DNA of 48,891 nucleotides, filler included, from Basidiobolus ranarum (taxonomy: Eukaryota), in NCBI GenBank assembly GCA_040143965.1. It is 2 parts of 2 records of this genome, joined end to end, with 100 filler letters (N's around TTAATTAATTAA, not from the genome) between each part and the next. Parts side by side here need not be neighbours in the genome. Positions count along the whole stretch, not along the records: positions 24,526 to 48,891 come from JASJQH010007030.1; 1 more part is not named here. The stretch is one strand, 5' to 3'. Position 1 is the first letter of the stretch, and each line of letters begins with the position of its first letter. A program made the position numbers and the translations under genes. Shown piece after piece: positions 1,029-41,462 of the stretch. A model generated the notes under the pieces. That model did no database searches. It saw only the letters and a program-made list of their open reading frames with translations, and was not told the DNA's origin.

Positions 1029-1866
1029 GGTAAATAAATTATTGAAGAGAAGGAAAGACGGTGTGGCTTTCTTTTTTGAAACCAGCTTATATATTCAACT
1101 TCAACCTTATCTATACTTACAACGTGACATCATATTTGGCTTAAATCATATTACATCCATAAGAATCTTCCAAGATTGAGTTTTTTTTCTAAGATTGGAC
1201 ACTGTTGAGTTTTGTAGTCAGCAAAGGAATCTATTAATAAAGCCACCTAGGCCCTCAGATATAACAACAAGCCAGTGACACTAGGGTTATTTATTTTAGC
1301 CTCAACCAAATATGTGACGAAGTGATTATAGTGTAGAGCTGGTGAAATCGGAACAAAATGGCTGACTGACTTATAAACTTCTTTTCGATCCGTCTCGATC
1401 CTACTCGTCAATCAAACAATGAGTGTTTCTTAATAATAAAGAATGAAATCAGCACCAATGAGATCAGGTATCATTATCTCACATTGATTATGGGGAACCT
1501 ACTGTAGATCTACCAACTTGACTGAAGAATTCAATAATCCAATAGTTAGTCAATTGTGCGGTTTTGATGAAGTGCTGGAAAGAATTCATTTCAAACAAGA
1601 AGAGATCCACAACAATGGACAATTGGTAATTTTTAAGGAAGTTAAACGCGTGCATAAATGAAGTTTGAAGTGGAATATTTTCGTTGCAAACTTTCTCCAA
1701 CCCATAAATATCTTGCTGCCCCGGTTTCCCAAGTGTTCACTTGATTAGAGCTAGATTTTAGATTTCATACGTAGACCACTTGGACTTCCCCTTTGAACTA
1801 CCTCTCACTTTCGTATCTTCTTTTTTGCAAGAGTTGACTGCTTTGGAAGAAGTATCATTCTAACAC

Positions 1867-16989: not shown

Positions 16990-18685
16990 ATGAACTCTCA
17001 TAATCGTTTGGCTGTACGCCAGGTATGTAGCTTGACCTGCCTCTTTTACTCCAGTGTCTCTAATGTGATCCTTTCTCCCCTAGTTCTGGCAGGAGAATCG
17101 GAGCCGCTTCCTGGTAGATTGGGTGGTCACACCTATCACCATCGTTATCATATTAGCATATGTTTGGTGTATGAACCAGCTGATTAAGCTCACGCCCATT
17201 GACTTTCCTGCTAGTGTAAGTACCCGGACAGATATACATTCTAACCGTGCCGAAGCTGACTCAAGTTTCTGTTTGTAGGTGGCATGCATGATTCTAACAT
17301 TCATACTTCTACTAATATGCAATCTGATCACCGCTCGCTATACCCAAATGTTCATCAATACATTTTCTCCGGCGGTGGACTTCTTACTGAAATGGATTAA
17401 CGTTCTCTTTTGTCCAGCTTTCATTCTAATCCCCAATAGCAAGTCCATCTCATCGAAAGAGTTTGGTATGGTGTTCGGAGTATTTGGTAAGTAATGGAGT
17501 GTTTCTTATCCAAAGGAAATAGATTTACTTAACAATTACTTTCTAGCAATTGGTCTATTGATCTCAACCATTGCAACTGCTTTGACCGTCAACGCATTTA
17601 AAAAATTGAAAACAATCATCTTTAAAAAGCCCCAGGCTTCAACTGAAGTGGAGTCTGGAGATCTCGAGAAGGCCAGTGCAATTGACCTACCAGAAGAGGA
17701 TGACTCCACATTAAATGAAAGAGAAAGGAACCCCAAAGAAACCTCGCCACCGGCAAACGATAAATCTATGAACAAGCTGAGTGAATTATCTGAGTTGAAT
17801 GAAAGTGGAAGCAAACTCAAGAAATTCCTGGGAGATTATGCCAATCCTATGATTTATTTCACCGCGTTTGTCCCTTCGTTTATAGTGTATTTGGTGACGG
17901 ATCAAGAATTACCAGTTCAGTTAACCTTGAACGTACTAAGTTTTTATGCTGCTTTGGCAGTGCCAGCAAGGATCCGAAGATTCCTTCACCCTATTATTAC
18001 CTGTTCTGGACTCATGATTTTCTTCATTTATATCCTTGGATTGATGAAGGGTCTCACTTTGACCCATGGCTTAGATACCTTCTCAACAGGTACACGTTAC
18101 CTAGTTCTACTTGACCCTACACGTACAGAATCAGTTCCTCAACCTGGGGCTGGAGACGTGCTTTATTCGTTACTTGAAGGCAGTATCGTATCCCTGTCAT
18201 TTAACATGTTCAAATACCGTAGAGAACTTCGGGATCATGCCTTCGAGATGATTCCTACCATTGGAATTATTAGTTGCGCTTCCTTATTTTTATATCCACT
18301 TATTGCGGGAGCCATGAATCTCCCAACCAATGTTGCACTTCCATTTGCTGTCCGAGGAATTACCACACCACTTGCCATTAATATTGAAACGGTACTTGGT
18401 GGTGATGTTAATACCACGGTGATTATGGTGATTGTCACGGGAATTCTTGGTGCAGTCGGTGGTCAATGGTTTTTAAGAAAATTGGGATTTAGTGAGGATG
18501 ATTATATCACCATCGGTGTTACATTGGGTTGTAACGCAAATGCAGTCTCTACCGCCGCTTTGTTAGAATCCAATTTAAAAGCCGCTGCCATAGCTTCTTT
18601 GAGTTTCGTACTGTTTGGAACCATTCCAATTATATTGGTCGCCATACCATCTATCACCAATGTTATCAGGGGATTCGCCACTTGA
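16990..18685 (+). CDS. LrgA/LrgB (CidA/CidB)-like fused multi-pass transporter, 4 exons
   Basis: N-half FPASVACMIL...FLLKWINVLFCPAFILIP is LrgA-like. C-half FAVRGITTPLAI, VTGILGAVGG, IGVTLGCNANAVSTAAL is LrgB-like. GT-AG introns link the ATG at 16990 to the 17558-18685 ORF. Confidence 0.85.
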
Positions 18686-21562: not shown

Positions 21563-21850
21563 TGTTAGTATTTGGGAGCCTGTTGGTAATGGGTAATATC
21601 TTAGTGTAATATAAGATAACTAAATACTGAGCTATATATGACTATATAGATGTTTAGGCAATGCTAATTTCAACAAAGTCTACCCCCATGATGTCAAGGT
21701 CCTCCAACAAGAGGTTTACTTGGTGCTAGTCAGCAAGAGATATATGGGACATGTAATTGTTGAAGTGTTTTGGGAGTTTGTTGGAAGTGGTTTGCAGAAC
21801 TAGAAGAACTGGTGATTTTCACTTATTGATTTATTATGTATAAAGTGGAC
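21563..21850 (+). repeat. Cluster of solo-LTR fragments: internally deleted family-1 copy 21563-21675, family-2 end 21676-21709, family-1 start 21758-~21850
   Basis: Direct matches to 26184-26512 (TATTTGGGAGCCTGTTGG; GTTTAGGCAATGCTAATTTCAACA) and to the end of 25670-25913 (AAGTCTACCCCCAT..TCCTCCAACA). Confidence 0.8.
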
Positions 21851-22251
21851 ATAGACAGAAAAACTGCATGCCAAAAAATGAATCAGTTTTGAGCGATAGT
21901 GTATCTTACAATACAAAGTGTGGCAGAATCACCTTCCTAGTATCAGAAACTATTATTTGGGTTCTTATTACGCCGGGTGTTAATTGTGACATTAAATCAT
22001 TACAGAGATATTGACATTTGAAAGATTCAAAAGAAAAAAAAGGAAATCAGTTGTGAGCTCCGTTGTACCAATTTCAAATTCAGCCATTTTCTACTCAAAT
22101 TTAATGACATGAGATTTTCCACGGGCGTTACATAAATAATGTATAGTTCTGGCAAGTGCTATGAGGAGTGTTTATTTCAAACTAATAGTACATATGTGGA
22201 ATTAAGACAAAAAGTATATAAATTGCCATTGGGAATATCTACAATCAGCAT

Positions 22252-23298
22252 TTAAATACTCACTGCATGGGGTATAGACGGGTAATTTAGAGGATCAGGG
22301 TAATCAAGAGCATCAGGATAGCCAAGTGACTCTGGGTAACTTGGTGGATTATCTTCATGTATGGCTTCGTACTCAGGTAGCAATTCAATCTCTACAGGTG
22401 CAACAGCATTGTGGGTAACCCTGTTGTTGATTTTTCGCACAATGCATATAGGCAATCTAGCTTTTATATGCCTGATTCGACCATCCAATTCAACGGTAAT
22501 TTTGGTCTGGAGTTGATGTGAGACTTCTACATAGGAAGAAGTCGAATCGAAATGAACATTCTTGTAGGATCTATCTATTCCAAGTGAAAGAGTGCTGGAT
22601 ACTGCGTCTCTGGATATATTCTTGAGAAGAGTACTCACAAATCTATTGATGCAGCAATTGACTCCAGCAGGATAGTCTCCCGGATCTTTATAAGTTGTAA
22701 TCTCATATACACCTGCCCAGACACTGATTAACTTACAGCTGCCACCTCGAACGTTGTGCTTGAATGTGATAGGAATGGTGTCGCTGGGAATATACTCGTG
22801 TTTAGGGATAATTATCTCATAATCAACCATATCCTTCCAGGTGTTTTCAATATGAGTGTTGCACACTGCAGACATCATTGCGCCAATATCTTGGTGAATA
22901 TACACCTCTCGATCAGTTTTTAAATTGGAGGCAAACAGTGGTGTCTCTACCATCGCTTTTAAATGGTATTGAATCGATGCATAGTCTACATACAGTGAAT
23001 CCGGAAGATCAGCAGGAAGTGCAAGTTCAAAATCATAAACATATTCTCCAGCGCAGAATAACTTGAGGTTCTGATGAAAATCCCATTTGTGGTCAATGAG
23101 GGTCGTAATGCAGCTTTGGATTCGTCCCTTCCTCATTACAAGCGAACCTTTGAAACAAAGGTTAATATTCTGCACCTTAATAGGCGTAGATGGAGTGAAA
23201 ATGAGCTTTCCCCTCAAAATAAATGGGGACTGATTATCATCAAAGATACTCTTGAACATAACATCTCTTTCAAGTTCGATTGATAACTTCGGACTCAT
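22252..23298 (-). CDS. Alpha-arrestin (ART-like) adaptor, copy 1
   Basis: Arrestin-N motifs LRGKLIF, GEYVYDFELALPADLPDS and IQYHLKAMV, arrestin-C-like EVSHQLQ, PY-type motifs LPEY and PPSY. ATG at 23298. Confidence 0.85.
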   Translation of the reverse strand: MSPKLSIELERDVMFKSIFDDNQSPFILRGKLIFTPSTPIKVQNINLCFKGSLVMRKGRIQSCITTLIDHKWDFHQNLKLFCAGEYVYDFELALPADLPDSLYVDYASIQYHLKAMVETPLFASNLKTDREVYIHQDIGAMMSAVCNTHIENTWKDMVDYEIIIPKHEYIPSDTIPITFKHNVRGGSCKLISVWAGVYEITTYKDPGDYPAGVNCCINRFVSTLLKNISRDAVSSTLSLGIDRSYKNVHFDSTSSYVEVSHQLQTKITVELDGRIRHIKARLPICIVRKINNRVTHNAVAPVEIELLPEYEAIHEDNPPSYPESLGYPDALDYPDPLNYPSIPHAVSI

Positions 23299-23801
23299 TT
23301 TCAAAGGGCTTGTAGTTAAATTTCACCAGTACAGAGTGTATGATTTTTCAAGTTGTAGTAAAGAATGAACACTTTCAATTCCAGCGGAAACTAAGTCTTT
23401 ATGAACGAAAATCTGATCATTTTCTTGAAATAAAATTATGCTATCGATTAGGATTAGACTCCACCATGTAACATGATCCATGCCATGCGAAGTATTAATA
23501 CATCTCACTACTATTTACGGTCTGAACATTTGAAGTCTGCTCCCTTGATTGCCGTTTCAGGTCAATCTTGGGATGCCACCGATCATCCAGATTCACTGAA
23601 CCAGCCACTTGTAGGACAGACGTCATCGTCTTACATCAAATCACATTGGATCAATATCCTCATTCGTATGAGATCAAGGTCATTCAGATATATGTACTTC
23701 TGGCAAGTGCTCTGGAGAGTGTTTATTTTAAACTATTAGTACATATGTGAGGTTAAGAAAAAAGTATATAATTTAGCATTGGGAATATCTACAATCAGCA
23801 A

Positions 23802-24425
23802 TTAAATACTCACTGCATAGGGTATAGACGGGTAGTTTAGAGGATCAGGGTAATCAAGAGCATCGGGATAGCCAAGAGACTCTGGGTAACTTGGTGGATT
23901 ATCTTCATGTATGGCTTCGTACTCAGGTAGCAATTCAATCTCTACAGGTGCAACAGCATTGTGGGTAACACTGCTGCTGATTCTTCGCACAATGCATATA
24001 GGCAATCTAGCTTTTATATGCCTGATTCGACCATCCAATTCAACGGTAATTTTGGTCTGGAGTTGATGTGAGACTTTTACATAGGGAGAAATCGAATCGA
24101 AATGAACATTCTTGTAGGATCTATCTATTCCGAGTGAAAGAGTGCTGGATACTGCGCCTCTGGATATATTCTTGTGAAGAGTACTCACAAATCTATTGAT
24201 GCAGCAATTGACCCCAGTAGGATTATCCTCCGGATCTCTATACGTTGTACTCTCACATACACCTACCCAAATACTGATTAGCTTACAACGGCCACCTCGA
24301 ACGTTATGCTTGAATGTGATAGGAATGGTGTCGCTGGGAATATACTCGTGTTTAGGGATAATTATCTCATAATCAACCATATCCTTCCAGGTGTTTTCAA
24401 TATGAGTGTTGCACACTGCAGACAT
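23802..24425 (-). CDS. Alpha-arrestin, tandem copy 2 (5' part lost in the assembly gap)
   Basis: Colinear with the C-terminal 207 aa of copy 1 (19 substitutions counted). The 3' flank ~23690-23801 also matches ~22140-22251. Confidence 0.8.
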   Translation of the reverse strand: MSAVCNTHIENTWKDMVDYEIIIPKHEYIPSDTIPITFKHNVRGGRCKLISIWVGVCESTTYRDPEDNPTGVNCCINRFVSTLHKNISRGAVSSTLSLGIDRSYKNVHFDSISPYVKVSHQLQTKITVELDGRIRHIKARLPICIVRRISSSVTHNAVAPVEIELLPEYEAIHEDNPPSYPESLGYPDALDYPDPLNYPSIPYAVSI

Positions 24426-24525
24426 NNNNNNNNNNNNNNNNNNNNNNNNNNNNNNNNNNNNNNNNNNNNTTAATTAATTAANNNNNNNNNNNNNNNNNNN
24501 NNNNNNNNNNNNNNNNNNNNNNNNN
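24426..24525. other. Assembly gap with artificial TTAATTAATTAA spacer
   Basis: N runs flank a 12-mer that has stop codons in all frames. Confidence 0.95.
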
Positions 24526-25047
24526 GCGTTTTTCGTTGAAGGACTTGGAGACATGATGAGTGCTCCATTCTTTGCCGCCTTTGCCACTTCAATTCATACC
24601 CTGCTTGCTATTCTCCTTGGCGGACTAACGGCTTTTCTTATGGTTTCTGCTGAGTTTATGTTAATTTCTCGTACCTCAGTCGTAACTCTTTCTGTAGCCG
24701 GTATCTTCAAGGTACCCAAGAGTAATTTTATGATGGGCAATTAGGGAAATTCGAGTCTCTAACTGTTGATTAATAATTTACAGGAGGTTATCACCATTTT
24801 CGTCTCTATCGTCACCTTTGGTGATACAGTAACTGGAGTGAATATTGCTGGCTTATGTGTAACTTTATTTGGTATAGGATTGTATAACTGGCTAAAAATC
24901 CATCAAATGAATCTTAAGAACGCAGACCCAGAATACAGCAAAATTAACCAAGTAGGTCTAGGTGATGATAGAGTGTTTTCCGCCAATGCCACCACTGAAT
25001 GGGATGAAGAAACGTTAGAGATGACTAGAACACGGTGGAATCTCTAA
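24526..25047 (+). CDS. 3' end of a triose-phosphate/nucleotide-sugar transporter family protein (SLC35C2-like); 5' part missing
   Basis: AFLMVSAEFMLISRTSVVTLSVAGIFK|EVITIFVS...GLCVTLFGIGLYNWLK. Intron 24712-24783. Confidence 0.85.
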
Positions 25048-25543
25048 TATTTCACCTCAATTGATATGGAACTTTGGAACATAAATGGATATTCTACGCT
25101 GGGATTTGATTGAATTCTTCATTTATCACCATCTTTGAGTGATACTTCATCACACCCTCCCTATCCTTTTCCCACTCTTTCTCTACTCATCCTCATCTAA
25201 GGGAGTGCTTTGTCACATAACTATAGGACCCCTTTGAACTTTATAAATTCTCCACTAACTACGTATAATATGAATCCGCCTATTGCTTATTTTTTGAGCA
25301 ACATACATGCTTTGCCCCACTTTCCCTTGACTTTATATAAAGTAAAAATATTTATGTACTATACTAGATGCTGCTATTTGTATGTAGATGTAGATGCAGA
25401 TGCTTACAACTCCTCTCAAGCATTCTCTTTAAATCCGCTGTTGTAAGTATTGAAGTGTTTAGGGTTCATCTAAACTGAAATGAATATATCAAGTCACGTG
25501 GCCATAGTTATTTTATGGAACATTGTTATGGTTAGCTAAGAAC

Positions 25544-26122
25544 TGTTGAAGTATTTTGGGAGTTTGTTGGAAGTGGTTTGGAGAACTAGAAGAATTGGTG
25601 GTTTTACTTACTGATTTATTGAGTGGAAAGCTGACATTTATAGTTTTATCAAGGGGTAAACAAACATACTGTTGGATAATTAATCTTTATTCAACATCAT
25701 AGTTAACTTTAGTTATGATACATATATCAGAAACAGAAAGCAACGTATCTATAGCCCCTATATTCTAAATAGGAATATCTCTATATCTATATAACAAGTA
25801 TGTCTTATTACCCCCACTTATCTATTATATCTTATTACACAAACTAAAACACACTATCATAAGTTGCTTCTAATACTCAAAGTCTACCCCCATTATGTCA
25901 AGATCCTCCAACACATACATATAAAATATGTCAAGGAATGTCCCAGGAACATGTGTGCAAAGTTTAGGTTCTTTAGGAAAAGTTCTCAGAATCTATATAT
26001 CTTCAAACTTCTAAGTAAATTCCTCTGGGGAATAGTAGGTGATATCTTTTGTGAAACATGGAATAACTAGATGCTAAGCTATATATGACTCTATAGATGT
26101 TTAGGTTATGTTTATTTCAACA
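25544..26122 (+). mobile_element. Family-1 solo-LTR-like element interrupted by a nested family-2 element
   Basis: TGTTGAA...TTCAACA termini. Colinear with 26184-26512 once 25670-25918 is removed. No flanking TSD. Strand is relative only. Confidence 0.75.
25670..25913. mobile_element. Family-2 solo-LTR-like element, 244 bp
   Basis: TGTTGGA...TCCAACA inverted termini flanked by an exact 5-bp duplication CATAC (25665-25669 and 25914-25918). Confidence 0.8.
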
Positions 26123-26183
26123 GTTAGAGCATCATACTACACTTTTGAAAGATAGAATCGAGAGCAAATAGTTGAATGTAAAC

Positions 26184-26512
26184 TGTTAAAGTATTTGGGA
26201 GCCTGTTGGAAATGGCTTGGAGAATTAGAGAAATTGGTGGTTTTGACTTATTGATTTATTGAGTAGAAAGTTGACATTTATACTTTTGTCAAGATGTAAA
26301 CAAACTAATGTAAAGAATGTGTTAAAAAAGGTCCCAGAAACATGTGTGCAAAGCTTGGGGCCTCCAGCACAAGTTTAAAAAATTTATATATCTGAGAACT
26401 TCTAAGTAAATTCCTCTTGAGAATAATGGGTAATATCTTAGTTCAATATAAGATAACTAAATACGAAGCTATATATGACTATATAGGTGTTTAGGCAATG
26501 CTAATTTCAACA
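26184..26512 (+). mobile_element. Family-1 solo-LTR-like element, 329 bp
   Basis: TGTTAAA...TTCAACA termini. Similar along its length to the reverse complement of 30337-30657. No TSD. Confidence 0.78.
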
Positions 26513-26520
26513 ATTAATCA

Positions 26521-26664
26521 GTGAAAACTATCGATTTCTCTATTTCTCCAAACCACTTCCAACAAACTCCCAAAAAACTTCAACAGTTCTTAGCTAACCC
26601 TAACAATATTCCATAAAATAACTATGGCCACGTGACTTGATATATTCATTTTAGTTTGGATGAA
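26521..26664 (-). repeat. Inverted copy of 25465-~25605 (about 80 bp of non-LTR flank plus the LTR start)
   Basis: Reverse complement reads TTCATCCAAACTAAAATGAATATATCAAGTCACGTGGCCATAGTTATTTTATGGAA...GCTAAGAACTGTTGAAG, nearly identical to 25465 onward. Confidence 0.9.
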
Positions 26665-27550
26665 GAAATCTCAGTCACAGCATATACCTCTTAGCTTCAA
26701 TAATTTCATGCATTCATGTCACTTCTTTTTACCACTCTGTGAAGATTGATTCAACGCAATATTCAATCTGGTTATGTTTGTAGAGCATACAATTTTATAC
26801 CTTGTGAGATCAGTATAGGTATGGCTCTAAGCGGAATCAGCGCACAACCAAGTACATAAAGACGAATACACGTCTCCACACTCTTGGTGCATCCTTCACG
26901 ATCATCTAATTTTTTCCAGTTTTGGTAGCATAATAACTAATTTAATATGGTACACGTGAATACCTCTTGGGTGATGTTCAATGGTTTTGCCTGAAAAAGA
27001 ATTTCCATGTTTCTCTGATTTGTAGTCAAGGAAAACGATGACCCTTGAGTGCGCTTGGCAGTAAACACAGAAGATTATATCTAGAATGATTGGTGACCAT
27101 TTAAGATCTAATAATGGGATGATTCCTGTATACTAGGTAACGCCAATAAGAATCACCAATACTATCACAACCCTAATATGGTCAAGCTGCCGTTAAGTTT
27201 AACTTGAGACTTCGCCACAACTAAAGTTTGTTGGAATACCAATTCACATCTATCCCATTGACTCGAATTAAAATGTAAGTTACTTCACGCTTCATTTGGA
27301 TGTTATTCGAGCTTATATCTGAGAGTTAGTAGCTGTACCAATGGACTTTACGATACGTTAATGATTCAGAATAAAGCTCACAAAACATAAACCACTGGCA
27401 TGGTCGAATATCCGGTACATGAGGGTGTATCATACACTAGTAGGTACATGATAAATTATACTTTATTTACTCGATAGTGTGGTTTAATTAGCTATATATA
27501 TACATTTCGAACGTCGAAATTTCACGAAGGATATGTGGCGGCTTCAACTC

Positions 27551-27787
27551 TTAGTCATCACCAGTAAGCTTCATTACTATATATTTGCATTTCATTGCCA
27601 AACTTCGATGGTATATAGCTTCTTCAATGCTTACGCGACGCCCGTGAAGAGTGTATCTGATTCTGGATGAGTCGGCAAGGCAGCATTGGGCTTTGAGATT
27701 ATGTCTGAGAAGTTGCGTATGGTAGAATTGGTTTACGCTCTCGTGAGCATTCAAAGTACCGTTGAACATGATATTCTGTTGGGTCAT
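27551..27787 (-). CDS. Small protein, paralog 1 of an unrecognised family (78 aa)
   Basis: C-terminal RYTLHGRRVSIEEAIYHRSLAMKCKYIVMKLTGDD. TATAAAA at 27844-27850 (-). AATAAA at ~27462 (-). Confidence 0.75.
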   Translation of the reverse strand: MTQQNIMFNGTLNAHESVNQFYHTQLLRHNLKAQCCLADSSRIRYTLHGRRVSIEEAIYHRSLAMKCKYIVMKLTGDD

Positions 27788-28327
27788 TAGAGTGATTTGA
27801 AAATAGATAAGAAATAAAGAAAAATTCCGTAACTAGTGGGAACTTTTATATCTCTCGATTCACACGGACACTAATGGAAATCACCAACCAAGTTCTCAAG
27901 AGACCACCAGTAAGGTTGAATTTTAGATTGGTTTCGTGTTATTGGTCTTACTTTTTCTATAGCACATTCCATTTATGGATGAATTTTCTTTTATACTTGT
28001 CACGGTAAAGCGCATAACGGATAATCATCACTCATGGTTCAGATTCATTGCTAGAGTTATCTTCGGAATATACAATCCAGTTACCCGTCCATACCGTGAT
28101 GATCATTCAGAGCCATTCGCAACGTATTGTGCGGTTCCCTTCGTGTTACCTGCACTTGATCAATTCGGATAATTTGGCACTAAGTTAAACACTGCCCTAT
28201 TCGAGCGATGGATTACCATCATTAGGCAATACGATTGACAGATTAACTTCACGTTTATTCTTCCAATATGAGACAGGGATAATTAGATATATACAGAGTG
28301 CCTTAATTTAATACTATCGCCGTAGGA

Positions 28328-28603
28328 TCACTCATCACCAGTGAGCTTCATCACTACATATTTCGCTTTCATGGCTAGACTTCGATGATACAACGCCTCC
28401 TCGTTGCTTAGTCGACGCCCACGAAGAGTATAGCTCAGCTTGGAAGGAGCAGCGAGTCGGCTTCGTCGGCCCGGTAGTAGTGATGAGTGATTTTGTTCTT
28501 TAGCGTTGGAACGATGCTTTGTATTATGCTGGCCATAGAAATGGCGGATGTTCTGGTGTTGAACATGATGTGAAATAGAAAGCTCAATTTGTCGATTAGT
28601 CAT
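28328..28603 (-). CDS. Small protein, paralog 2 (91 aa)
   Basis: C-terminal SYTLRGRRLSNEEALYHRSLAMKAKYVVMKLTGDE. TATAAAA at 28661-28667 (-). AATAAA at ~28254 (-). Confidence 0.78.
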   Translation of the reverse strand: MTNRQIELSISHHVQHQNIRHFYGQHNTKHRSNAKEQNHSSLLPGRRSRLAAPSKLSYTLRGRRLSNEEALYHRSLAMKAKYVVMKLTGDE

Positions 28604-29608
28604 GCCCTAAAATGTGATACTCAAGAGACGCGGATGCTGACATGTCAAAGTCAGTATTCCTTTTATAAGATGTACTCATCAATGGATTGACAATCAAGAC
28701 CTTCCCGTGGTCGTACAAGATGGGCGAGCTCATTAATTGCATTGAGGAATCTTCCAAATATGGAGCTATCCATCCCTCACGACGTCATGGTTTCGTAAGA
28801 GCGGACGTAGTGAGCTAATCGTGCAGAGAACAAAAAAACTAACGGAAAACCGGCTTCGTATGTAGCAAAGTCTCTCTCAAAGATCCCAATCAGTGATCCT
28901 AATGGATACAAGTATTGTTTTCCCTGATCATTTGGCTTTCTTCAAAGAAACGTGACATCCAGTAGATTTCGCGAGCAAATGAATCATAGATGCCTGTAGC
29001 TCGAATTGCTATTAGTGGTCCTTTGCATCCTGGAGCTACCCAATCACATGCGCAGCCTGTTCAAACAGGTATCAGAAAATCCCCATAGGGACTCAACATC
29101 AAACCGATTGCTCGTATGTTCATAGGCCACACTCTTATCATGCAAATGTTCTAAAATACTGAGCTAAAGCTAGCCTAAGTGGTCTGAGGGTTAAACTATG
29201 TTTTCTTTGCCATCCTATTGCACTCGTAACCGAAAGCAATCTGACCCATTCGCTACCGAAAAGAAGCGAAACTTTAGCCAAGCTATCACCATAAGCATGT
29301 CGGAATTAGTACCGATAATGAGCAGCTACCCCTAGCTCATCACTAGGAAACTAGCCAAGGTTTTACCTGAGAACGAATACATGGGCAACATTACAATTAA
29401 GTGACTGTCATGCCAAGAAAACGATTGGTTTTTGTTCGAAGAACAAAAGCAATCATCACCTTTGCTGAAAGAACTGTACGACTTGCGTATTTTAGCGTGA
29501 ATCCAATTTTTGTCACTATAATTCTTATGAAGTCCGCTCCTTCGTATAAAATCCCTACCCTTTCATCTTTTGGAACACCATCTTTCAGTGTAGCCGGCTG
29601 TCTCAATT

Positions 29609-29857
29609 ATGACCAAAAGTGATATATATCTCCAAGCCTCGCTTTCTACTGCCCATCAAAGCCCCCACCAATCATATGGTCAACTTGAGCAAAAGAGCCT
29701 TGCATCGCCGCTAACTACTCAGATGAATGATATCGACTTACTAAAGGTCAAATATACTCTTCGTGGACAATCCTTAAGCGTAGAGGAGGCCATGTACCAT
29801 CGGAGGCTAGCGATGAACTACAAATTTATCATGATGAAGCTTACGAGAGAAACATAG
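29609..29857 (+). CDS. Small protein, paralog 3 (82 aa)
   Basis: C-terminal KYTLRGQSLSVEEAMYHRRLAMNYKFIMMKLTRET. TATAAAA at 29545-29551. AATAAA at 29909. Confidence 0.75.
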   Translation: MTKSDIYLQASLSTAHQSPHQSYGQLEQKSLASPLTTQMNDIDLLKVKYTLRGQSLSVEEAMYHRRLAMNYKFIMMKLTRET

Positions 29858-30336
29858 GATCCAGAACTATGTATATGTACACAACTTTTGACACTCAATC
29901 CACATTAGAATAAATTGTAACACTTATCATTCAACCTACATATCCATTCTAGATCATTTTCCAAATCTGATCAAGATCGTGTTAGCTGCATATTTTTTGT
30001 TTAGGAATTGTTAATATTAGGTTTGTGAGTCATACTGGGTTTCAGCATATGAGGTACACAACGGGTTAGCTAGATGTAAAGACCACTGTCGCGGGACATT
30101 GCAATTCCAGTTTACACAACTATGATATATAATGGAATGTTCAGATGTGGGAGAGAACAAATTACTGCTGTTGTAAAGCTCAGGATTCATTGCAAAAGTT
30201 GCATTTTCATTTGTACACCAAGTTAAGGTGAATGCTTTGTAAAGGCTACCATCATCTTGGTGCTAATAAACATCATGATATGTTAAGAAAAGTTAGCTCA
30301 GTGAGAGCAATTGAATTCAGTGTAATAAGTGCTTAC

Positions 30337-30657
30337 TGTTGAAATTAGCATTGCCTAAACACCTATATAGTCATATATAGCTTAGTACTTAGTTATCTTA
30401 TAATTCACCAAGATATTATCCATTATTCTCAATCGGAATTTACTTAGAAGTTCTCAGATATATAGATTTTTCAAACTTGTGCTAGAAGCCCTAAACTTTG
30501 CACACATGCTCCTGGGACTTTTCTTAACATATTCTACACATTAGTTTGCTTACATCTTGGCAAAAATATAAATGTCAACTGAACACTCAATAAGTGAAAA
30601 CCACCAATTTCTCTAATTCTCCAAACCACTTCCAACAGGCTCCCAAATACTTTAACA
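30337..30657 (-). mobile_element. Family-1 solo-LTR-like element, 321 bp, with intact TSD
   Basis: TGTTGAA...TTTAACA termini, with the 5-bp direct repeat CTTAC on both sides. Confidence 0.85.
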
Positions 30658-32803
30658 CTTACTATATATCTCTTCACTATCCTAAATTCTTCCTAGCTGT
30701 TCTTCAGTATTTAAAAGCTTGGTGCCATTTGAATCTGACTCAAATAGAAAATTGAGCTCTTTTTTCTGATTATGTATGTCGTTTCTGTAAGAACGAGCAC
30801 TTTCACGCACTGGAAACATTAGCTACTACTTCTTTATTCTAACCACCTACTGGTGACATTATTCGATGCACTTGAAAAAATCATCTATATTACAACACTT
30901 TTCGTAGTATTTAAGTAATGTCCTCAGAGTAGATATATCAACAAGACACCATCAAAACTTCACCTTTACCACTACATACATATTAAACTAACAGTGAGGG
31001 AATATTCTCATATATGTTGCTCAAAGTTAAACATATATTGAAGCTTGCAAGGGAAAACCTTTATGTTATGGCTGGAATGACATAACGTTGTGTATATATT
31101 TCAAGTGGCCAGAAGAGTATAGCTTAGACACCAAAAGTATAAGTGCTCAGATAGACAAATATCATCGATATACGTTTGAGTACCTACAATATCCAAATAT
31201 TCTAAGCCTCTATAGCCCATTCCCCAATCCAGGCATTTCCATAATACATCAGCATGGCTCCTCTTCATCCTTCATAAATGGAAGAATTAACATCGCTAAA
31301 TCTTGATTTCAATTATTCCCTTAAAGTAAAACTGATACACTTCCATATACACACATACTCGCACACTGGTATACACTCCGTAAGCATGAATAGATTAAAA
31401 TCACTTAGTGATTTGTGCAACCAATGTTGGAACACCCAAAATTAGTCGCACATCTCAAGGGAGATCTTTGTTCTTTTGGTAACATTTGTACCATATCGAA
31501 GAGTACTAAAATTTAATGGCTAAGAATAACTATGTATACAACGGAAATCTTTCATTAAGTGGCTTATTTCCAATCATTATTTAGTTTCATTTGGTATGAT
31601 TTATGGGGGAAGAGGGTAATTCTCCCATAAGATTCCCCACAAAAATAACTGACAAATTAGATGCTAGTATTATCTAGTTGAACTGTGGTCCATGTCCATT
31701 TCCCAACTGGAAGAGCCTTTGAGTCCTAGAGTAGACAGCTTGAGCTAGGTATGTTCAGGCGGTGAAATAGGGAAGCAGTCTATATGATTGCTTCCTTCCA
31801 CTCGTCATACTACATGAGTTCCAGGTTAGCAGCAGGTCCACTGCATTCCTCCTAATCAGTATATTCTCCACCGAATATTAGACGGGAAGCTCGTATGGTT
31901 CGATACAAATGAATGACTCTAGTATGAATTCATTGTGCAACATCAACACCAAAGGCCGTTGTTGGTTGCTGGATTCACCCACCCCATCAGAAACAAGTAT
32001 TTCAATGTCTCAGTATCAACATTGAATTTTGGCTATGAATCTATTTATAGATACGTTGAGTGGTGAGATCAAGTTGATCTGTAGAATCTTTCAAATTAAT
32101 GAAGTACAAATTCTATTGGAGTTTACACAAGGAGAATGGAGAAATTCTTTACAATCTTAATGATTGTCACTCTAAGCGTCTCCTCACTTCACACAAGAAA
32201 TTTTGGAATCACTTCATTAGTTGGAATATTCGTACGACATTCAGTACATTATCGGTGGCAATTAGGGAAATCCTTTCGAGACCCAGACATTCAACCTGTT
32301 GTCTGTGCAAGTAAAATGAATATGGTATGCATGGAGACAGTGGGTTTCTTGTCATTTTCAAGAAGAATGGCAGAGCAAACGTAAAAAACGCCATATGAAT
32401 TTAAATAGATCTTCCAAAGTTGGCCTATTAATTCTGAATGATACTTCCTAATGCAAAACAAGAGGCTTTATAATCAATCGAACGTTGGCCAAGAGAAGAA
32501 AATCGAACAAAATGCCAAAAGTAAGGCAAGATTATGGAAATGTTGGGTAAAGGTAAATATGAAATAGGAAAAGAGATAGAAAGATTTAAAAGTAGCAAAA
32601 TAACATAGAGTTATCAAGTAAACATTACTATATATCTTCAAAAAAAACATTATTTATCCTAGCAGTGGTGCGAAGGGAGTAGCTGTTCGCAAATGGAATT
32701 TTCATGAAGGTACAAATATGAACTGGGGTAAATCAAAGTAGTGTATCAAGGATATAGATGAATGGCAAATTATGCGTTGGTCACGATTCAGGTGAAAGAA
32801 AGA

Positions 32804-34280
32804 TCAACGACAGATGACCATACAAGGAGCAAAGATAGAGGTTGCAATACTATACCACCATGAGCTATTTTCTGCAGGAAGATAGGCCGGAGTGAGGTCG
32901 GCAGATATGGGTAATTTACACATAGGACAAGTGCCAGATTTGGTGGTCAACCAAGGATCAATACACTCTACGTGGTAGTAGTGACAGCAGGGTAGCTCAC
33001 GGACTTCATCGCCATCGTTGAAATCATCCAAGCATATTGGGCAAACGCTTTGGGCTGTTTCTTCATCTTCCGATTTAAATGGAGGAGGTGAAAGCATATT
33101 TTGAGGATCGTAAGCTGGTGGAGGTTCCATTACAACAGTACATTGATGGTTGATGTTATTCTTCCCATGGGAGGAGCGAGTACGTAGTTCCCCACTAGGA
33201 TGCCAGACCTTGACAGGGAATTTGTTTAGAGCGCTCTTATGAATAACCATCATCTCGGTACCATCAGGAATGTTGTTTCGAAGAGCATAATTACGACGAA
33301 GTCGGTAAAGATGACAATGCATGGCCACTACAAGTGGCGGGTGTTAGTAGCAGTTTTGATGACTGTAATTGAACCAATAGAACTTTACCTGATATGGCCA
33401 AAGACAGAAAGAGAAGCACAACCACAATGATGAGAGTAAACTCCCATACACTGGGATATGATTTTTCACTTGGTTGCATTGTGAACCTGATTTGCTTTTT
33501 GAGAGTATTCACGTTACCGGTAGACTGTTGGCTGTCTAAGATGTCTTGGGCCATCTGAACGCCTTTGTCAGAGGAAACAACGAATACGGGGATAACAATA
33601 GGGATGGAAAAATGAACGTCATTCAGGCTAATATCATCACCATTTGTGGAGTAAATGATAGCACCCAGTGCTTGATCATTTTGGGCACGCATAATTTTCC
33701 AATCAAGAGTACAGTTGCCCAACGGCACTAAGGCAATTCGAGTATATCCGGTATGTGCACTACTATTTGATGACTTAGAGGTTGGTAAGCCTTCACAAGG
33801 AACATCGAGGACGTATCCGATACCCTAAATCCAAAACAAAGTTAAGTTAAGGTTCTTGGTGACTTGATGATAATTAGATATGGGAGATATTTATGCCGAT
33901 CCACGGACATTCAAGTTATTAGCCGAATATACAGGACAAAGAGAATAAGATAATTCGTATTATGAGTACTGAAGGGATAAACTTAGCGTTGTAGCAGTCT
34001 GAGTAAACTTCATTACCTGTAAATCCTTATCATTTAAACCTGCTGTATTGGGGACAACACGAACACCAGAAGTGATATCACTGGGAGTAATAGTCTTGTC
34101 AACAGAAATATGATTGGTGTTGGTGTCGATAAAAACAGTCTCTTCATGTATACTAGGGTTTTTCCCACCAAACAAACCAGCAGATGTCAACTGAAAGTGG
34201 AAACAAACCAACAAGAGACCAACAATAGACAACCAGCGCCTGGTTGACCACCCAGTGGTCGCTATACTTGGTAAATACAT
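32804..34280 (-). CDS. PA-TM-RING-H2 E3 ubiquitin ligase (RNF13/RNF167/GRAIL-like), 3 exons
   Basis: Signal peptide, PA-like RIALVPLGNCTLDWKIMRAQNDQALGAIIY, TM FTLIIVVVLLFLSLAISVAM, RING-H2 CPICLDDF...LPCCHYYHVECIDPWL...CPMC. Introns 33825-34016 and 33328-33388. Confidence 0.9.
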
Positions 34281-37200: not shown

Positions 37201-37357
37201 TGTGTGTAGTTTGGGGAAAGTGATTAGTGTCTTGGATAAGTTTGAAAATTTTGACCTGTGGAAGGGATTCAAAATGTTGCAATATTGACTAGCGAATTAT
37301 TCCGGAATTATATATAATAAATAAGCTCGTACAAAGTAATGTATCTCATGTACAATC

Positions 37358-37743
37358 TGTTGAAGTATTTTGGGAGTTTGTTGGAAGTGGATTGGAGAAC
37401 TGGAAGAATTCATGGTTTCCACTTATTGATTTTGTTGAAGTATTTTCGGAGCCTGTTGGAAGTGGTTTGGAGAAATAGAGAAATTGGTGGTTTTGACTTA
37501 TTGAGTATTCAGTTGATATTTATAATTTTGTCAAGATGTAGACAAACTAACGCGTAGAATGTGTTGAGAAAGGTCCCAGGAGCATGCGTGCAAAGTTTGG
37601 GGCTCCTAGCACAAGTTTAAAAAATCTATATATCTGAGAACTTCTAAGTAAATTCCTCTTGTGATATCATGGTTCAATATTGAATAACCAAGTACTAAGC
37701 TATATATGACTATATAGGTGTTTAGGCTATGCTAATTTTAACA
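37358..37743 (+). mobile_element. Family-1 solo-LTR-like element, 386 bp, with duplicated first ~75 bp and intact TSD
   Basis: TGTTGAA...TTTAACA flanked by CAATC on both sides. A second TGTTGAAGTATTTT start occurs at ~37433. Confidence 0.85.
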
Positions 37744-38433
37744 CAATCATATAACCAAAAGCCTAACTCACATGATCAAATCAACTGACTGCAAACCTTT
37801 TCAAAGTGCAACACTCTAATACATACTGGCTACAATTCCAAATATGTAGAGTTTCGATTCCTTTGGTTTTTAGCTACGTGCCGTTGTGAATAATTTTATT
37901 TCAAGAAACTAACCGATGTTTGCTACCTACAATGTGGATTTGTGCTTCCTGAAAGCCATGCAATTGTCAGTATATAGCAAGATAGCGACTATCATTTGTA
38001 CCAGGAGGCTAAAATAGTAATAGGTTTGAATTAGCAAGTGCATAGATCCCTGCCTATATGTATCTACCTTCAGTCTACTAGTTCTATCATCTGCAGTTTA
38101 TAGATTAACAAAAGAGATGCTTCCATGATTCTTATTCTACTTCACCTTAAAGCTGCTTAGTAATAAACCAGCACTGAATCATCATAGTTGACAAGTTGGC
38201 AAATTTGCAAGTGGCTGAATATTTGTTTCCCATCTTGCATATATTTGGGAAGCAGTTGCTCAATATACAGAAGTCTGAATATGTATTTTACGTAGTCCCG
38301 GCCAATATGAATAATGGGTAAATCTTTCTCGACTTCCCTATACTTTGTATTTTATGCACAACTATGTATCATTTATTTCAATGTAGTTTGAGGATTTCAC
38401 AGCATATACTTGTTAGATTCAAACACTTCTTAT

Positions 38434-38490
38434 TGTTGAAAATGACATAGCTTAAGCATCCATATAGTCATATAGTTAGCTACCTAAATT
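38434..38490 (-). repeat. Diverged fragment of the family-1 LTR end
   Basis: TGTTGAAAATGACATAGCTTAAGCATCCATATAGTCATATAG resembles TGTTGAAATTAGCATTGCCTAAACACCTATATAGTCATATATAG at 30337. Confidence 0.55.
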
Positions 38491-38934: not shown

Positions 38935-39528
38935 TTACCACTTATATCCTGCATCAGGGCCTGGGACCGGGTTGCCACCTGGATGCTCTCCATTGTTTGA
39001 GTAATCACCAGAGTGACCATCTTCATGAGGAGAGTCACCCTTAGAGTGGTTCTTCACATGGTGTTTTCCTTTACCACCATGATGGGAGCCTTTTCCACCA
39101 TTGTGAGAGCCTTTTCCGCCATTGTGAGAGCCTTTTCCGCCATTGTGAGAGCCTTTTCCACCATGGTGAGAGCTTTTCCCTTTACCGGAGTGACCCTTCA
39201 TGTGGTGCTTGCCCTTACCACCGTGATGAGATCCCTTATCTTTACCGGAGTGACCCTTCTTATGATGGGAGCCTTTGCCTTTACCTCTACCGTGACCCTT
39301 TGAGTGATGTCCATCACCATCATGGTGATCATTCTTTTTATCATCGTCATCATCATGGTGTTCATTCTTCTTACCATCATTATACGAAGGAACCACATGT
39401 GGTGCTGGTGCTCCAGAGGACTCCAATGCTGCAACATTACCACTGGCATCAGAGTCTTCGCTAGGATAAGCGAATGCGACTTGGGTAGTGGCAAGAGCAG
39501 TCAAAGCGAGAGCAGCGAAGAATTTCAT
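38935..39528 (-). CDS. Secreted His/Gly/Lys-rich low-complexity protein (197 aa from the ATG at 39528)
   Basis: Signal peptide MKFFAALALTALATTQVAFA, acidic His/Asp block, GGKGSHN/GGKGKHH repeats. TATA-like TATATATA at ~39609. AATAAA ~60 nt after the stop. Confidence 0.85.
   Translation of the reverse strand: MKFFAALALTALATTQVAFAYPSEDSDASGNVAALESSGAPAPHVVPSYNDGKKNEHHDDDDDKKNDHHDGDGHHSKGHGRGKGKGSHHKKGHSGKDKGSHHGGKGKHHMKGHSGKGKSSHHGGKGSHNGGKGSHNGGKGSHNGGKGSHHGGKGKHHVKNHSKGDSPHEDGHSGDYSNNGEHPGGNPVPGPDAGYKW
39076..39300. repeat. Coding tandem repeats: 21-bp unit (GGKGSHN) and 60-bp unit (KGHSGK...HH)
   Basis: CCATTGTGAGAGCCTTTTCC repeats with period 21. TTTACCGGAGTGACCCTTC recurs at 39181 and 39241. 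Confidence 0.9.
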
Positions 39529-40805
39529 GATGAAGAGGTAAGGTAAAGGAGGTAGAAGGGCAAGAGGAGGACTGGTAGGAGTGATGTTCACACACCATGA
39601 TCACTGGGTATATATACCTCAAAACAACTACGCAACTGCTATCCTGGGCGGTGACTTGAGTTGTATGGGAATATGCGAAGAAAGAATGGGGCTGGCGAGT
39701 AATAGTTTAGAAATGATTTACTTGGATGTCTCAGGGACGATGTCGCTTCAAAGTTAGGAGATTTACCCTACGACTTGCTGTGAAACACGTATTTACCTTC
39801 CCATGTATCACACACTAAACTAGCACATGCATAAGGAGTACTTGTTTGATATCAGCCCATTAAGTATATGCATAAGGCTGGGTTTGTTGAATATCTATTT
39901 TAATTGAAACTAGAGTCTAATCCTACATAAAGCCATTGAGAACCGCTATTCCAAGCAGTTGTGAATCATGTCTGAAACAAGTCATTCGAATGGATGGTGA
40001 AAAATGTTTTTGGATTCCCAAGCCGGCGTTACGATGCGATTGTTTATCGCTCTTATTTTCCGATCAAACCAAGGCTATGCTGCCACAGGCGCCTGTAACA
40101 ATGGTGACATTAGATCTCAAGATACCCATGGCGGATGACTGTGATTGGATAGCTCAAGATCAACAACTCTGTTGATGGCGAGACTCTTTGGTAAAGCACA
40201 CAGGTATTTGGGATTTATGGATGATTATCTGCTATACAAACTATCTTGCACATGATTGGGAGGGCTTATGGAATGCGTTCCGTGAAAAAAATGGCTCAAT
40301 GATGCAGTCATACTCTCAAACCATTCCCATGACCAGTCTGATTGCAAATTAAGCTACTGTCCTGGCAAATGGTGTGTGGCATGGGTGAATCACCCAATAT
40401 ATTGATCATTCCTCCAGGGATGGCACAGGGCATGGTTAATACATGCTATATTGAACCACTCAGCTCAGTTATCGCTGATTCTAGTACGCCTTGTTGGCCA
40501 TAAAAGTCGAATCTACACTGATTCTTAAACCATTTTTATTTGCTCTAGCGGCTCTTCAAATTCACATTTAAACTCTGATCACTCTATTGTATTTGGATAA
40601 TTGTCTTTTTTTTTTTAATGCATCACCCCCAGGACAGAGACCATTCATTTCTCTTAAAAGGAAGAATCTCCGTGTAGTGCATATTTGTTATTCTTTTGTT
40701 TGCCTGTCTATACAAGTTTTCCCAGCCAAAACTTATCCTTCTAACTCAAGTTCTTACATTCTCGTATAGGAGACTTGTATTATTATTACAAAAACAATCA
40801 ACAAT

Positions 40806-41462
40806 ATGCCAGTCCTCGAAGTGGTGGGTGGTTTAATAGGTGCAGCCATAGTTTGTTCCATGGTCGTTCGTAAAGTTCACATAAAAAAGCAAAAAGCTAA
40901 AGTCAACAAAATGACAAAAGCATTATGGAAACGTCGAAAATTTATCTATGGTAGTCCCAGAGTCACCCCTGTTACTTCAACTGGTGCAAATACTACTACT
41001 GCCAACAACGATGAAACGGGTCAAACTTTGGCCAACGTCAATTATTACCCTAGTGCTTCTGCTATGGTAACCCCCAATATCATATTACCGCCTATTCATT
41101 TTCGTAGCAACCACCATTACCCACAATTCTCTTCCAACATCCCTATCGCCGATCTTCCAACAATGTCTCAGACAGCTTCGGCTCGTGAATTTGTAGCCTG
41201 TAACGGTAACTTGCCTAGAGAGAATGTGAACCACTTCGAACTACAGAGTTTACCTCCTCCAACACCACCCGCTTCAGCACTATATCGAGAAATCCCTTCG
41301 GCGCCGAGTCTCGCCGAGTCGGAGAATATGGAACAGGAATATCCCGAGTTATCCACTTCAACTTTCTCAAGTCAATTGCCTAGTGCTCCTACTTTAGATC
41401 ATTTCGAACTCTCTGAAAGTATCGCAACTACAACAATATCCAAGGAATGCCTAGTCGGATAA
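40806..41462 (+). CDS. Uncharacterised protein with N-terminal membrane anchor and Pro/Ser-rich tail
   Basis: 218-aa ORF. Hydrophobic VVGGLIGAAIVCSMVV is followed by a basic stretch. Two PSAP motifs. Confidence 0.7.
   Translation: MPVLEVVGGLIGAAIVCSMVVRKVHIKKQKAKVNKMTKALWKRRKFIYGSPRVTPVTSTGANTTTANNDETGQTLANVNYYPSASAMVTPNIILPPIHFRSNHHYPQFSSNIPIADLPTMSQTASAREFVACNGNLPRENVNHFELQSLPPPTPPASALYREIPSAPSLAESENMEQEYPELSTSTFSSQLPSAPTLDHFELSESIATTTISKECLVG

What the first reader, a model, noticed from the sequence alone, without database searches (positions are those of the whole stretch)
27551..29857. Cluster of three micro-protein genes sharing an unrecognised ~35-aa C-terminal motif and the same promoter geometry
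Seen: three intronless ORFs (78, 91, 82 aa; strands -, -, +) end in YTL[RH]Gxx[LV]SxEEAxYHRxLAMxxK[YF]xxMKLT followed by exactly three residues and a stop. All start with MT. Their N-terminal halves are divergent, polar and Q/H/S-rich. Each has TATAAAA 57-58 nt from the ATG and an AATAAA downstream. The DNA differs at many codon positions while the protein motif is kept. Inference: these are real, selected, probably co-regulated genes. They have no signal peptide and match no family I recognise. A disordered N-terminus plus a short strand-helix module could be an inhibitor or adaptor peptide, a nucleic-acid-binding peptide, or a stage/stress-specific protein. Genes this short are easily missed by annotation. 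This is the best candidate for an undescribed system in the window.
Basis: partly seen in the sequence, partly recalled or inferred. Interest (0 to 1): 0.82.

Follow-up and report, generated by a model that had tools for sequence, protein, structure and literature searches.

The report
Three orphan micro-protein genes in Basidiobolus
Three neighbouring genes for 78-91-residue proteins in a Basidiobolus fungus share a strongly conserved 34-residue tail that matches no known family; they look like real, selected genes, but what they do is unknown and they could not be looked for in related genomes.

Summary
There are three intact ORFs of 78, 91 and 82 aa. All start with MT, and all end in the same 34-residue motif, three further residues and a stop. 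Each has TATAAAA ending 57-58 nt before the ATG and AATAAA 52-84 nt after the stop.

The tail is under purifying selection: dN/dS is 0.09-0.24 with synonymous sites near saturation, and DNA similarity ends at the stop codon.

The window is from the Basidiobolus ranarum assembly. Only the 91-aa gene is in the public protein collection; the other two are not.

No relative turned up in Pfam, NCBIfam, PDB sequences, 1.84 billion protein representatives, or metagenome, prokaryote and viral DNA. Two weak TPR-repeat hits failed a profile-profile test.

AlphaFold2 models two of the three (A and B) as a disordered N-part followed by a beta-hairpin and a 22-residue helix. Foldseek found no similar fold.

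Best reading: a lineage-restricted family of small, basic, mostly disordered proteins whose tail folds on a partner. Expression, orthologues and function could not be tested. Interest is modest.

The parts
27551..27787 (-). Gene A: 78-aa micro-protein, CDS including the stop; not in the public protein collection
   Evidence: ORF. In-frame stop at -48 with no upstream ATG within 120 nt. Absent from the collection.
28328..28603 (-). Gene B: 91-aa micro-protein, CDS including the stop; the only copy present as a protein record (NCBI, UniRef; no name shown)
   Evidence: P0001. In-frame stop at -6.
29609..29857 (+). Gene C: 82-aa micro-protein, CDS including the stop; not in the public protein collection. 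Transcribed divergently from B, with 1005 nt between the two ATGs.
   Evidence: In-frame stop at -18.
27554..27655 (-). Conserved 34-codon C-terminal module of A (beta-hairpin plus helix in the model)
   Evidence: AF2: strands 45-47 and 50-52, helix 54-75, pLDDT 73-87.
28331..28432 (-). Conserved 34-codon C-terminal module of B
   Evidence: AF2: strands 58-60 and 63-65, helix 67-88, pLDDT 81-87.
29753..29854 (+). Conserved 34-codon C-terminal module of C
27844..27850 (-). TATAAAA of gene A, starting at -63 from the ATG
28661..28667 (-). TATAAAA of gene B, starting at -64 from the ATG
29545..29551 (+). TATAAAA of gene C, starting at -64 from the ATG
27462..27467 (-). AATAAA 84 nt after the stop of A (candidate polyadenylation signal)
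28254..28259 (-). AATAAA 69 nt after the stop of B
29909..29914 (+). AATAAA 52 nt after the stop of C

Best explanation
The three ORFs are real, intronless, protein-coding paralogues. They form a family so far seen only in Basidiobolus ranarum, and they arose by old whole-gene duplications.

Each encodes a small (9-11 kDa), basic (pI 9.2-10.7), non-secreted protein. The polar N-part (41-54 residues) evolves fast and is probably disordered. The 34-residue C-terminal module (short beta-hairpin plus a helix of about 22 residues) is strongly constrained.

Inferred mechanism: the module is too small to fold alone, and it is conserved on all faces of the helix. It therefore most likely folds on and docks to one common cellular partner, a protein or possibly a nucleic acid. 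The variable tails would then give each paralogue its own effect, so these would be small adaptor or inhibitor-type regulators. The TATA-box promoters at identical spacing suggest regulated (condition- or stage-dependent) rather than housekeeping expression.

Shown here: gene integrity, homology along the full length, purifying selection on the tail, promoter geometry, and absence from all known families. Inferred: disorder, fold-on-binding, the existence of a partner, and inducibility.
For: Gene integrity:
- The three ORFs are intact, with the same MT start and a stop three residues after the motif.
- Each has an in-frame stop upstream, at -48, -6 and -18.

Selection on the tail:
- dN/dS is 0.086, 0.109 and 0.236, with dS 1.2-2.4.
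- Fisher tests of synonymous versus non-synonymous change give p = 1.9e-6, 4.3e-5 and 3.4e-3.
- Identical residues number 26, 20 and 21 of 33 in frame 0, against 12-17 in the other frames. Ungapped identity is 79, 69 and 70 of 102 coding nt, against 29, 27 and 21 of 100 nt just after the stop.

Homology of the N-parts: they still align better than shuffles, z = 2.4, 3.5 and 5.9, with 26, 8 and 1 of 1000 shuffles reaching the score. Stop codons make up 5.8% of triplets in the window, so an unconstrained 41-54-codon frame would stay open only 4-8% of the time.

Promoter: TATAAAA sits at -63/-64/-64, with only 20 such heptamers in the window.

Composition: GC of the genes is 0.42-0.46, close to known coding ORFs (0.427) and above the flanks (0.345-0.353).

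Structure: AF2 models of A and B agree on a disordered N-part, a hairpin and a helix at pLDDT 73-87.

Conservation around the helix: 14 of the 22 helix residues are invariant, on all sides of the wheel. The helix is not amphipathic: muH is 0.10-0.19, and 1705, 953 and 1314 of 2000 shuffles do as well.

Localisation and charge: no signal peptide or membrane segment; basic pI.

TATA-box promoters being typical of regulated, stress-responsive genes is established knowledge from yeast. I recalled it and did not test it here.
Against: - No transcription or translation evidence could be obtained.
- No orthologue was found anywhere. That includes the annotated proteins of B. meristosporus, which are in the collection at least for the neighbouring gene (P0005; searches). 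No eukaryotic genome DNA could be searched, so absence there is not shown.
- A codon-usage log-odds score trained on 2892 codons of neighbouring ORFs does not separate the three genes (0.05-0.09) from meaningless ORFs nearby (-0.04 to 0.12).
- The structure models rest on three sequences; mean pLDDT is 61-62 and pTM 0.34-0.37.
- Nothing identifies a partner.
- Only the TATA box is shared upstream, so co-regulation is weakly based.
- The R-R-x-S site at the invariant serine is present in 2 of 3 copies only.
Confidence: 0.5

Rival explanations
1. Small nucleic-acid-binding proteins. The basic hairpin-plus-helix module would bind DNA or RNA directly, and the Q/H/S-rich tails would act as low-complexity effector regions.
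For: - The C-terminal 37 residues have pI 9.7-10.1 and whole proteins pI 9.2-10.7.
- R, K and H residues in the hairpin and helix are invariant.
- The models give a hairpin followed by a helix.
- There is no signal peptide.
Against: - No match to any DNA- or RNA-binding family in Pfam or NCBIfam at E <= 10.
- No PDB sequence hit at E <= 10.
- No structural match: 8 Foldseek hits for A, all at E >= 4.5, and none for B.
- The module also keeps many hydrophobic residues invariant, which suits burial in a protein interface as well.
Confidence: 0.15
2. Precursor peptides of a ribosomally made natural product. The conserved C-terminal module would be a recognition (follower) sequence for a processing enzyme, and the variable N-part would hold the product.
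For: The architecture is a variable part joined to an invariant recognition-like part, in several tandem paralogues without a signal peptide. Basidiobolus is described as unusually rich in secondary metabolism (PMC7466969, listing and start of abstract only; PMC10079182, passages).
Against: - No tailoring or processing enzyme family was found among the ORFs scanned in the 48.9-kb window. The neighbours are arrestins, a TPT-type transporter, a PA-RING ligase, a ZIP transporter, cytochrome b5, LrgB and an EEP nuclease.
- The variable parts are long (41-54 residues), still homologous, and show no conserved cleavage site.
Confidence: 0.05
3. Not independent genes. They could be 3' exons of larger unrecognised genes, remnants of a mobile element, or relics now decaying.
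For: - No expression data.
- The codon-usage score does not discriminate.
- Copies of a dispersed repeat of about 330 bp bracket the cluster in inverted orientation.
- No orthologues were found.
Against: - In-frame stops lie just upstream of each ATG.
- The MT start is shared and TATA is at the same spacing in all three.
- B is present in NCBI and UniRef as a free-standing 91-aa protein.
- DNA similarity is confined to the CDS. Nothing repeated flanks the individual copies; the dispersed repeats lie more than 470 nt from the nearest gene.
- No transposon protein family appears in the surrounding ORFs.
- dN/dS is far below 1.
Confidence: 0.1
4. A stand-alone, degenerate single unit of a TPR_10/TPR_12-type repeat, descended from a fungal TPR protein.
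For: Apart from B's own record (P0001), the only hits of the family profile in 1.84 billion representatives are two TPR-repeat proteins. They are P0002 (CHAT plus TPR_10/12; E = 3.7e-6 summed over 6 repeats) and P0003 (E = 9.3e-4 over 4 repeats). Both match profile positions 38/42-69 without gaps and share the G-x7-A, EEA, H and A spacing.
Against: - The E-values come from summing repeated weak matches.
- The profile-profile comparison gives probability 5.8%.
- No TPR model in Pfam matches at E <= 10.
- There is one unit per protein, not an array.
- AF2 gives a hairpin, not a helix, before the helix.
Confidence: 0.05

Closest known systems
Taxonomically restricted (orphan) small-protein gene families of fungi, as a general phenomenon (recalled, not from a call)
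   Same: Short, intronless, tandemly duplicated, with no homologues outside the lineage, partly missed by annotation, and a fast-evolving disordered part.
   Different: A 34-residue module is held under strong purifying selection (dN/dS 0.09-0.24) with identical promoter geometry. That argues for an established function rather than a young proto-gene.
TPR_10 / TPR_12 repeat units of fungal CHAT-TPR proteins (P0002, P0003; Pfam PF13374, PF13424)
   Same: An ungapped 31-residue likeness, including the G, the EEA helix start, H and the small residue seven positions after the EEA alanine.
   Different: There is a single unit, not an array. No Pfam TPR match. hhalign probability is 5.8%. The predicted element before the helix is a hairpin, not a helix.
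Small intrinsically disordered regulator or inhibitor proteins that fold on their target, for example mitochondrial ATPase inhibitor IF1 or heat-stable kinase and phosphatase inhibitors (recalled classes; analogy of working principle only)
   Same: Size under 100 residues, a largely disordered chain with one short conserved helix-forming element, histidine-rich and basic.
   Different: No sequence or family relation. No consistent mitochondrial presequence. The target is unknown. The R-R-x-S site is not conserved in all copies.
Cytoplasmic fungal RiPP precursor families with conserved flanks and a variable core, of the MSDIN/cycloamanide type (recalled)
   Same: Multi-copy short genes, no signal peptide, and a conserved recognition-like segment joined to a variable segment.
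   Different: The variable part is 41-54 residues and still homologous. No processing-enzyme family was found among the ORFs scanned in the window. The conserved part is at the C-terminus only.

Membership tests
TPR repeat proteins (Pfam TPR_10 PF13374, TPR_12 PF13424) | Match to a Pfam TPR model | tested here: not met
   0 families at E <= 10 for all three proteins.
TPR repeat proteins (Pfam TPR_10 PF13374, TPR_12 PF13424) | Tandem array of helix-turn-helix units of 34-42 residues | tested here: not met
   The motif occurs once per protein. AF2 shows a hairpin plus one helix.
TPR repeat proteins (Pfam TPR_10 PF13374, TPR_12 PF13424) | Profile-level homology to a bona fide TPR protein | tested here: not met
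   hhalign of A1 against P0002 gives probability 5.8% over 31 columns. The HMMER E-values of 3.7e-6 and 9.3e-4 arise from 6 and 4 summed repeats.
Secreted small effector or cysteine-rich proteins | N-terminal signal peptide with a hydrophobic core | tested here: not met
   The longest apolar run is 3-4 residues. The maximum 8-residue Kyte-Doolittle mean among windows starting in the first 30 residues is 0.16-0.94. No dedicated signal-peptide predictor was available.
Fungal RiPP precursor (MSDIN-like) | Short hypervariable core between conserved flanks | tested here: inconclusive
   Only the C-terminal part is conserved. The variable part is 41-54 residues and is weakly but significantly alignable.
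Fungal RiPP precursor (MSDIN-like) | Dedicated processing or tailoring enzyme in the genome, often nearby | tested here: not met
   None among the 29 ORFs or ORF fragments (48-410 residues) scanned with Pfam across the window. The rest of the genome could not be searched.
Transposable-element ORF | Repeated DNA extending beyond the ORF, terminal repeats, transposase or gag/pol homology | tested here: not met
   DNA similarity is limited to the CDS. No TE family appears in Pfam scans of the genes or the surrounding ORFs.
PKA-type phospho-regulated peptides | R-R-x-S/T site conserved in all members | tested here: not met
   R-R-x-S at the invariant serine in A and B. C has R-x-x-S on a different serine.
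Real protein-coding gene (general test) | Purifying selection specific to the reading frame | tested here: met
   dN/dS 0.086-0.236; excess of third-position change, and identity drops in the other frames.
Real protein-coding gene (general test) | Transcript and protein evidence | not testable with these tools

The most novel reading that the evidence does not exclude
The 34-residue hairpin-plus-helix tail is a previously undescribed autonomous recognition module. It would found a Basidiobolus-specific family of inducible micro-regulators, with many more unannotated copies in the genome, that dock onto one conserved cellular machine and tune it during a lineage-specific life stage such as conidial discharge, the gut stage or zygospore formation.
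Probability: 0.25. Interest if true: 0.55.

Novelty: new member of a known kind. Interest (0 to 1): 0.35.

Why it matters
If confirmed, this would be a clean example of an orphan micro-protein family that has passed from 'possible ORF' to 'constrained gene'. It sits in a poorly studied, deep-branching fungal lineage that lives in amphibian and reptile guts and occasionally infects people.

It also shows concretely that the current annotation misses such genes: 2 of 3 here are absent.

The conserved tail gives a ready bait for finding its partner. The paralogues' different tails give a natural experiment on how disordered regions diversify function.

Without expression data, orthologues or a partner, it remains one of many lineage-specific gene families in fungi.

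Tried and rejected
Searches for relatives:
- Family libraries: Pfam and NCBIfam, 0 hits at E <= 10.
- Word-indexed search of 5.8 billion protein clusters, first with B and then with the three-sequence profile at E <= 10. Only B itself was found, among 1 and 27 candidates.
- Exhaustive HMMER profile search of 1.84 billion representatives. It returned B plus two TPR-repeat proteins. I rejected these as relatives after hhalign gave 5.8%.
- PDB sequence search: 0 hits.
- ESM Atlas with the whole protein and with residues 52-91. Best feature scores were 0.77 and 0.86, within the tool's stated noise range, and the structure rows were unrelated.
- DNA collections with back-translated patterns. Metagenomes: 185 pattern matches, 0 relatives. 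Prokaryote genomes: 104 matches, 0 relatives. Viral contigs: 56 matches, 0 relatives.
- A broader degenerate pattern on metagenomes: 0 matches.
- None of these collections holds eukaryotic genomes as DNA.

Structure:
- Foldseek against PDB: 8 hits for A, all at E >= 4.5, and 0 hits for B.
- Homodimer prediction of the tail (residues 38-78 of A, two copies): no verdict, score 0.02 against a mark of 0.32, controls not run. I draw nothing from it.

Other checks:
- The codon-usage log-odds score did not discriminate.
- Shared upstream motifs: only the TATA box.
- Rfam and tRNA scans of the window: 0 hits.
- Earlier findings of this scan: nothing relevant.
- Literature. 'Basidiobolus' plus 'small open reading frame': 0 papers. 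'Basidiobolus ranarum' plus genome plus transcriptome: 17 papers. 'Basidiobolus' plus RNA-seq: 51 papers. No listed title or abstract concerns these genes.

Ideas considered from memory and dropped: likeness to LysM, AP2-type, ribbon-helix-helix and mitochondrial presequence patterns. The spacing differs, or no library model matched.

Full report
**What is there**

The region holds three intact ORFs:
- A: 27551-27787 (-), 78 aa.
- B: 28328-28603 (-), 91 aa.
- C: 29609-29857 (+), 82 aa.

All three start with MT. The alignment has 25 invariant columns, 19 of them in the last 37.

A and B lie in tandem. B and C are divergent, with 1005 nt between their ATGs.

Each ATG is preceded by an in-frame stop, at -48, -6 and -18. 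A has no upstream ATG within 120 nt. B has upstream ATGs at -76 and -40, and C at -82.

TATAAAA starts at -63, -64 and -64, so it ends 57-58 nt before the ATG. AATAAA follows the stop at +84, +69 and +52.

The window holds 20 TATAAAA on both strands, with 18.8 expected from shuffles. The heptamer is therefore not enriched overall. By my arithmetic, about 4e-7 is the chance that B and C match A's spacing within one base. AATAAA is commoner, at 99 matches, so that feature is weaker, about 1e-3 by chance.

A six-frame motif scan and a deliberately permissive tblastn found no fourth copy or relic in the 48.9 kb; the next best E was 0.17.

**Where it is**

A neighbouring ORF (17495-18685) matches a protein that its source names as from Basidiobolus ranarum, at 98% identity. 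That protein's contig length of 24,425 equals the window's part before the N runs at 24426-24525. B's own record lies on a contig of 24,366, which equals the part after them.

The trio sits in a stretch of about 8 kb (24.7-32.8 kb) that has no other recognisable gene. On the left are the 3' end of a TPT-type transporter gene (24526-25047) and two arrestin-fold paralogues. On the right is a PA-RING ligase gene (32804-33824).

Small ORFs in the stretch have no credible Pfam match; the best E was 0.0066 and below threshold.

Copies of a dispersed repeat of about 330 bp lie at 25465-26664 and 30332-30660 in inverted orientation. Further copies are at 21567-21852 and 37354-37743. The repeat is therefore a genome-wide element, not part of the genes.

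**Are they genes?**

The strongest evidence is the pattern of substitution.
- Over the last 34 codons the pairs differ at 23, 33 and 32 of 102 nucleotides. Of these, 15, 20 and 17 are third positions (binomial p = 0.0017, 0.0012, 0.016).
- Nei-Gojobori dN/dS is 0.086 (A-B), 0.109 (A-C) and 0.236 (B-C), with dS of 1.2-2.4.
- Fisher tests give p = 1.9e-6, 4.3e-5 and 3.4e-3.
- Read in the other two frames, identity falls from 26, 20 and 21 of 33 residues to 12-17. The 100 nt after the stop are only 21-29% identical, which is random level.

The constraint is therefore on the protein, not on the DNA or an RNA.

The N-parts are at synonymous saturation, but they still align better than shuffles (z = 2.4, 3.5 and 5.9). 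The duplications thus covered whole genes. The open frames have also been kept. Stops make up 5.8% of triplets in the window, so a free 41-54-codon frame would stay open only 4-8% of the time.

Gene GC (0.42-0.46) resembles coding ORFs (0.427), not the flanks (0.345-0.353).

Against this, a codon-usage score trained on 2892 neighbouring codons does not separate the three genes from meaningless ORFs nearby. No transcript or peptide evidence could be obtained either.

**Annotation status**

Only B is in the public protein collection (NCBI and UniRef, a singleton cluster). A and C are absent.

**Relatives**

None was found.
- Pfam and NCBIfam: 0 hits at E <= 10.
- PDB sequences: 0 hits.
- Word-indexed searches of 5.8 billion clusters: only B.
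- Exhaustive profile search of 1.84 billion representatives: B plus two TPR-repeat proteins.
- Metagenome, prokaryote and viral DNA: 0 confirmed relatives.

The two TPR hits are a CHAT-TPR_10/12 protein and a TPR_10 protein. Their repeat unit aligns without gaps to profile positions 38/42-69 and shares the EEA helix start. The E-values come from summing 6 and 4 weak repeats, however, and the profile-profile probability is 5.8%. No Pfam TPR model matches either. I treat this as a resemblance, not kinship.

Two limits apply. A 34-residue motif needs about 35 bits to pass in libraries of this size, so diverged relatives could be missed. And no eukaryotic genome DNA could be searched, so unannotated orthologues in B. 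meristosporus or elsewhere remain fully possible.

**Structure**

AlphaFold2 models were made of A and of B, each from the three-sequence alignment. They agree on three points:
- A disordered N-part, with pLDDT mostly below 50.
- A two-stranded hairpin (YTL / RR[VL]).
- One helix of about 22 residues running to the MKLT end, at pLDDT 73-87.

Mean pLDDT is only 61-62 and pTM 0.34-0.37, so these are low-confidence models.

Foldseek found nothing similar in the PDB.

The helix is not amphipathic: muH is 0.10-0.19, no better than shuffles. Of its 22 residues, 14 are invariant, on every side of the wheel.

The proteins are basic, pI 9.2-10.7, and have no signal peptide or membrane segment.

**How it most likely works**

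This part is inference. A 34-residue hairpin-plus-helix cannot bury a core on its own, and it is conserved all round. That is what one expects of an element that is enclosed by a partner when it folds.

I therefore read these as small regulator or adaptor proteins. The constant tail docks on one common partner, and the fast-evolving polar tails differ between paralogues.

The identical TATA geometry, with nothing else shared upstream, fits regulated rather than constitutive promoters. That link comes from recalled yeast knowledge and was not tested here.

I put about 0.85 on 'real, selected protein-coding genes' and about 0.35-0.4 on the docking mechanism itself. The combined statement gets 0.5.

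**Rivals**

- Direct nucleic-acid binding (0.15).
- Not independent genes, or relics (0.1).
- RiPP-type precursors (0.05). No processing-enzyme family was found among the ORFs scanned in the window.
- A degenerate single TPR unit (0.05).

**Comparison with the known, and novelty**

The family belongs to no described protein family. As a phenomenon it is a taxonomically restricted small-gene family, and such families are common in fungi (recalled). Basidiobolus genomes are described as regionally duplicated (PMC10079182, passages seen).

No listed paper on Basidiobolus concerns these genes. Supplementary tables could not be seen.

I rate it as a new member of a known kind, with modest interest. 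The selection signal and the clean module make it a good experimental handle. Nothing yet points to an unusual mechanism.

Noticed in passing
window 21567-21852, 25465-26664 (several partial copies in both orientations), 30332-30660, 37354-37743, 38432-38481: A dispersed repeat of about 330 bp (78-95% identity between copies), with no ORF, tRNA or Rfam match. Inverted copies (262 nt, 88%) bracket the micro-gene cluster at 26251-26512 and 30337-30598. It is probably a non-autonomous mobile element.
   Followed up: partly
window 22252-23322 (-) and 23802-24473 (-): Two adjacent arrestin-fold ORFs (Arrestin_C, with Arrestin_N/LDB19 in the first). They are either tandem paralogues or exons of one gene. 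The second runs into the N run.
   Followed up: no
window 24526-25047 (+): The 3' end of a TPT-family transporter gene (Pfam TPT, E = 3.8e-4, last 39 profile positions), cut by the N runs and probably with one short intron. In Mucorales a TPT gene flanks the sex locus (recalled). No HMG-box or helicase match appeared among the ORFs scanned, so I draw no link.
   Followed up: partly
window 24426-24469 and 24482-24525: Two runs of 44 N, 12 bases apart. They split the window into pieces of 24,425 and 24,366 bases, which equal the contig lengths reported for the neighbouring proteins.
   Followed up: yes
window 1864-3096 (+), 204-1094 (-), 38935-39600 (-), 40770-41462 (+): Long open frames (410, 296, 221 and 230 aa from stop to stop) with no Pfam family at E <= 0.001. 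They may be further lineage-specific genes.
   Followed up: no
window 17495-18685 (+): An LrgB-like gene. B. ranarum has at least three further paralogue or orthologue records (64% and 41% identity within the species, 73% to B. meristosporus), consistent with frequent duplication in this genome.
   Followed up: no
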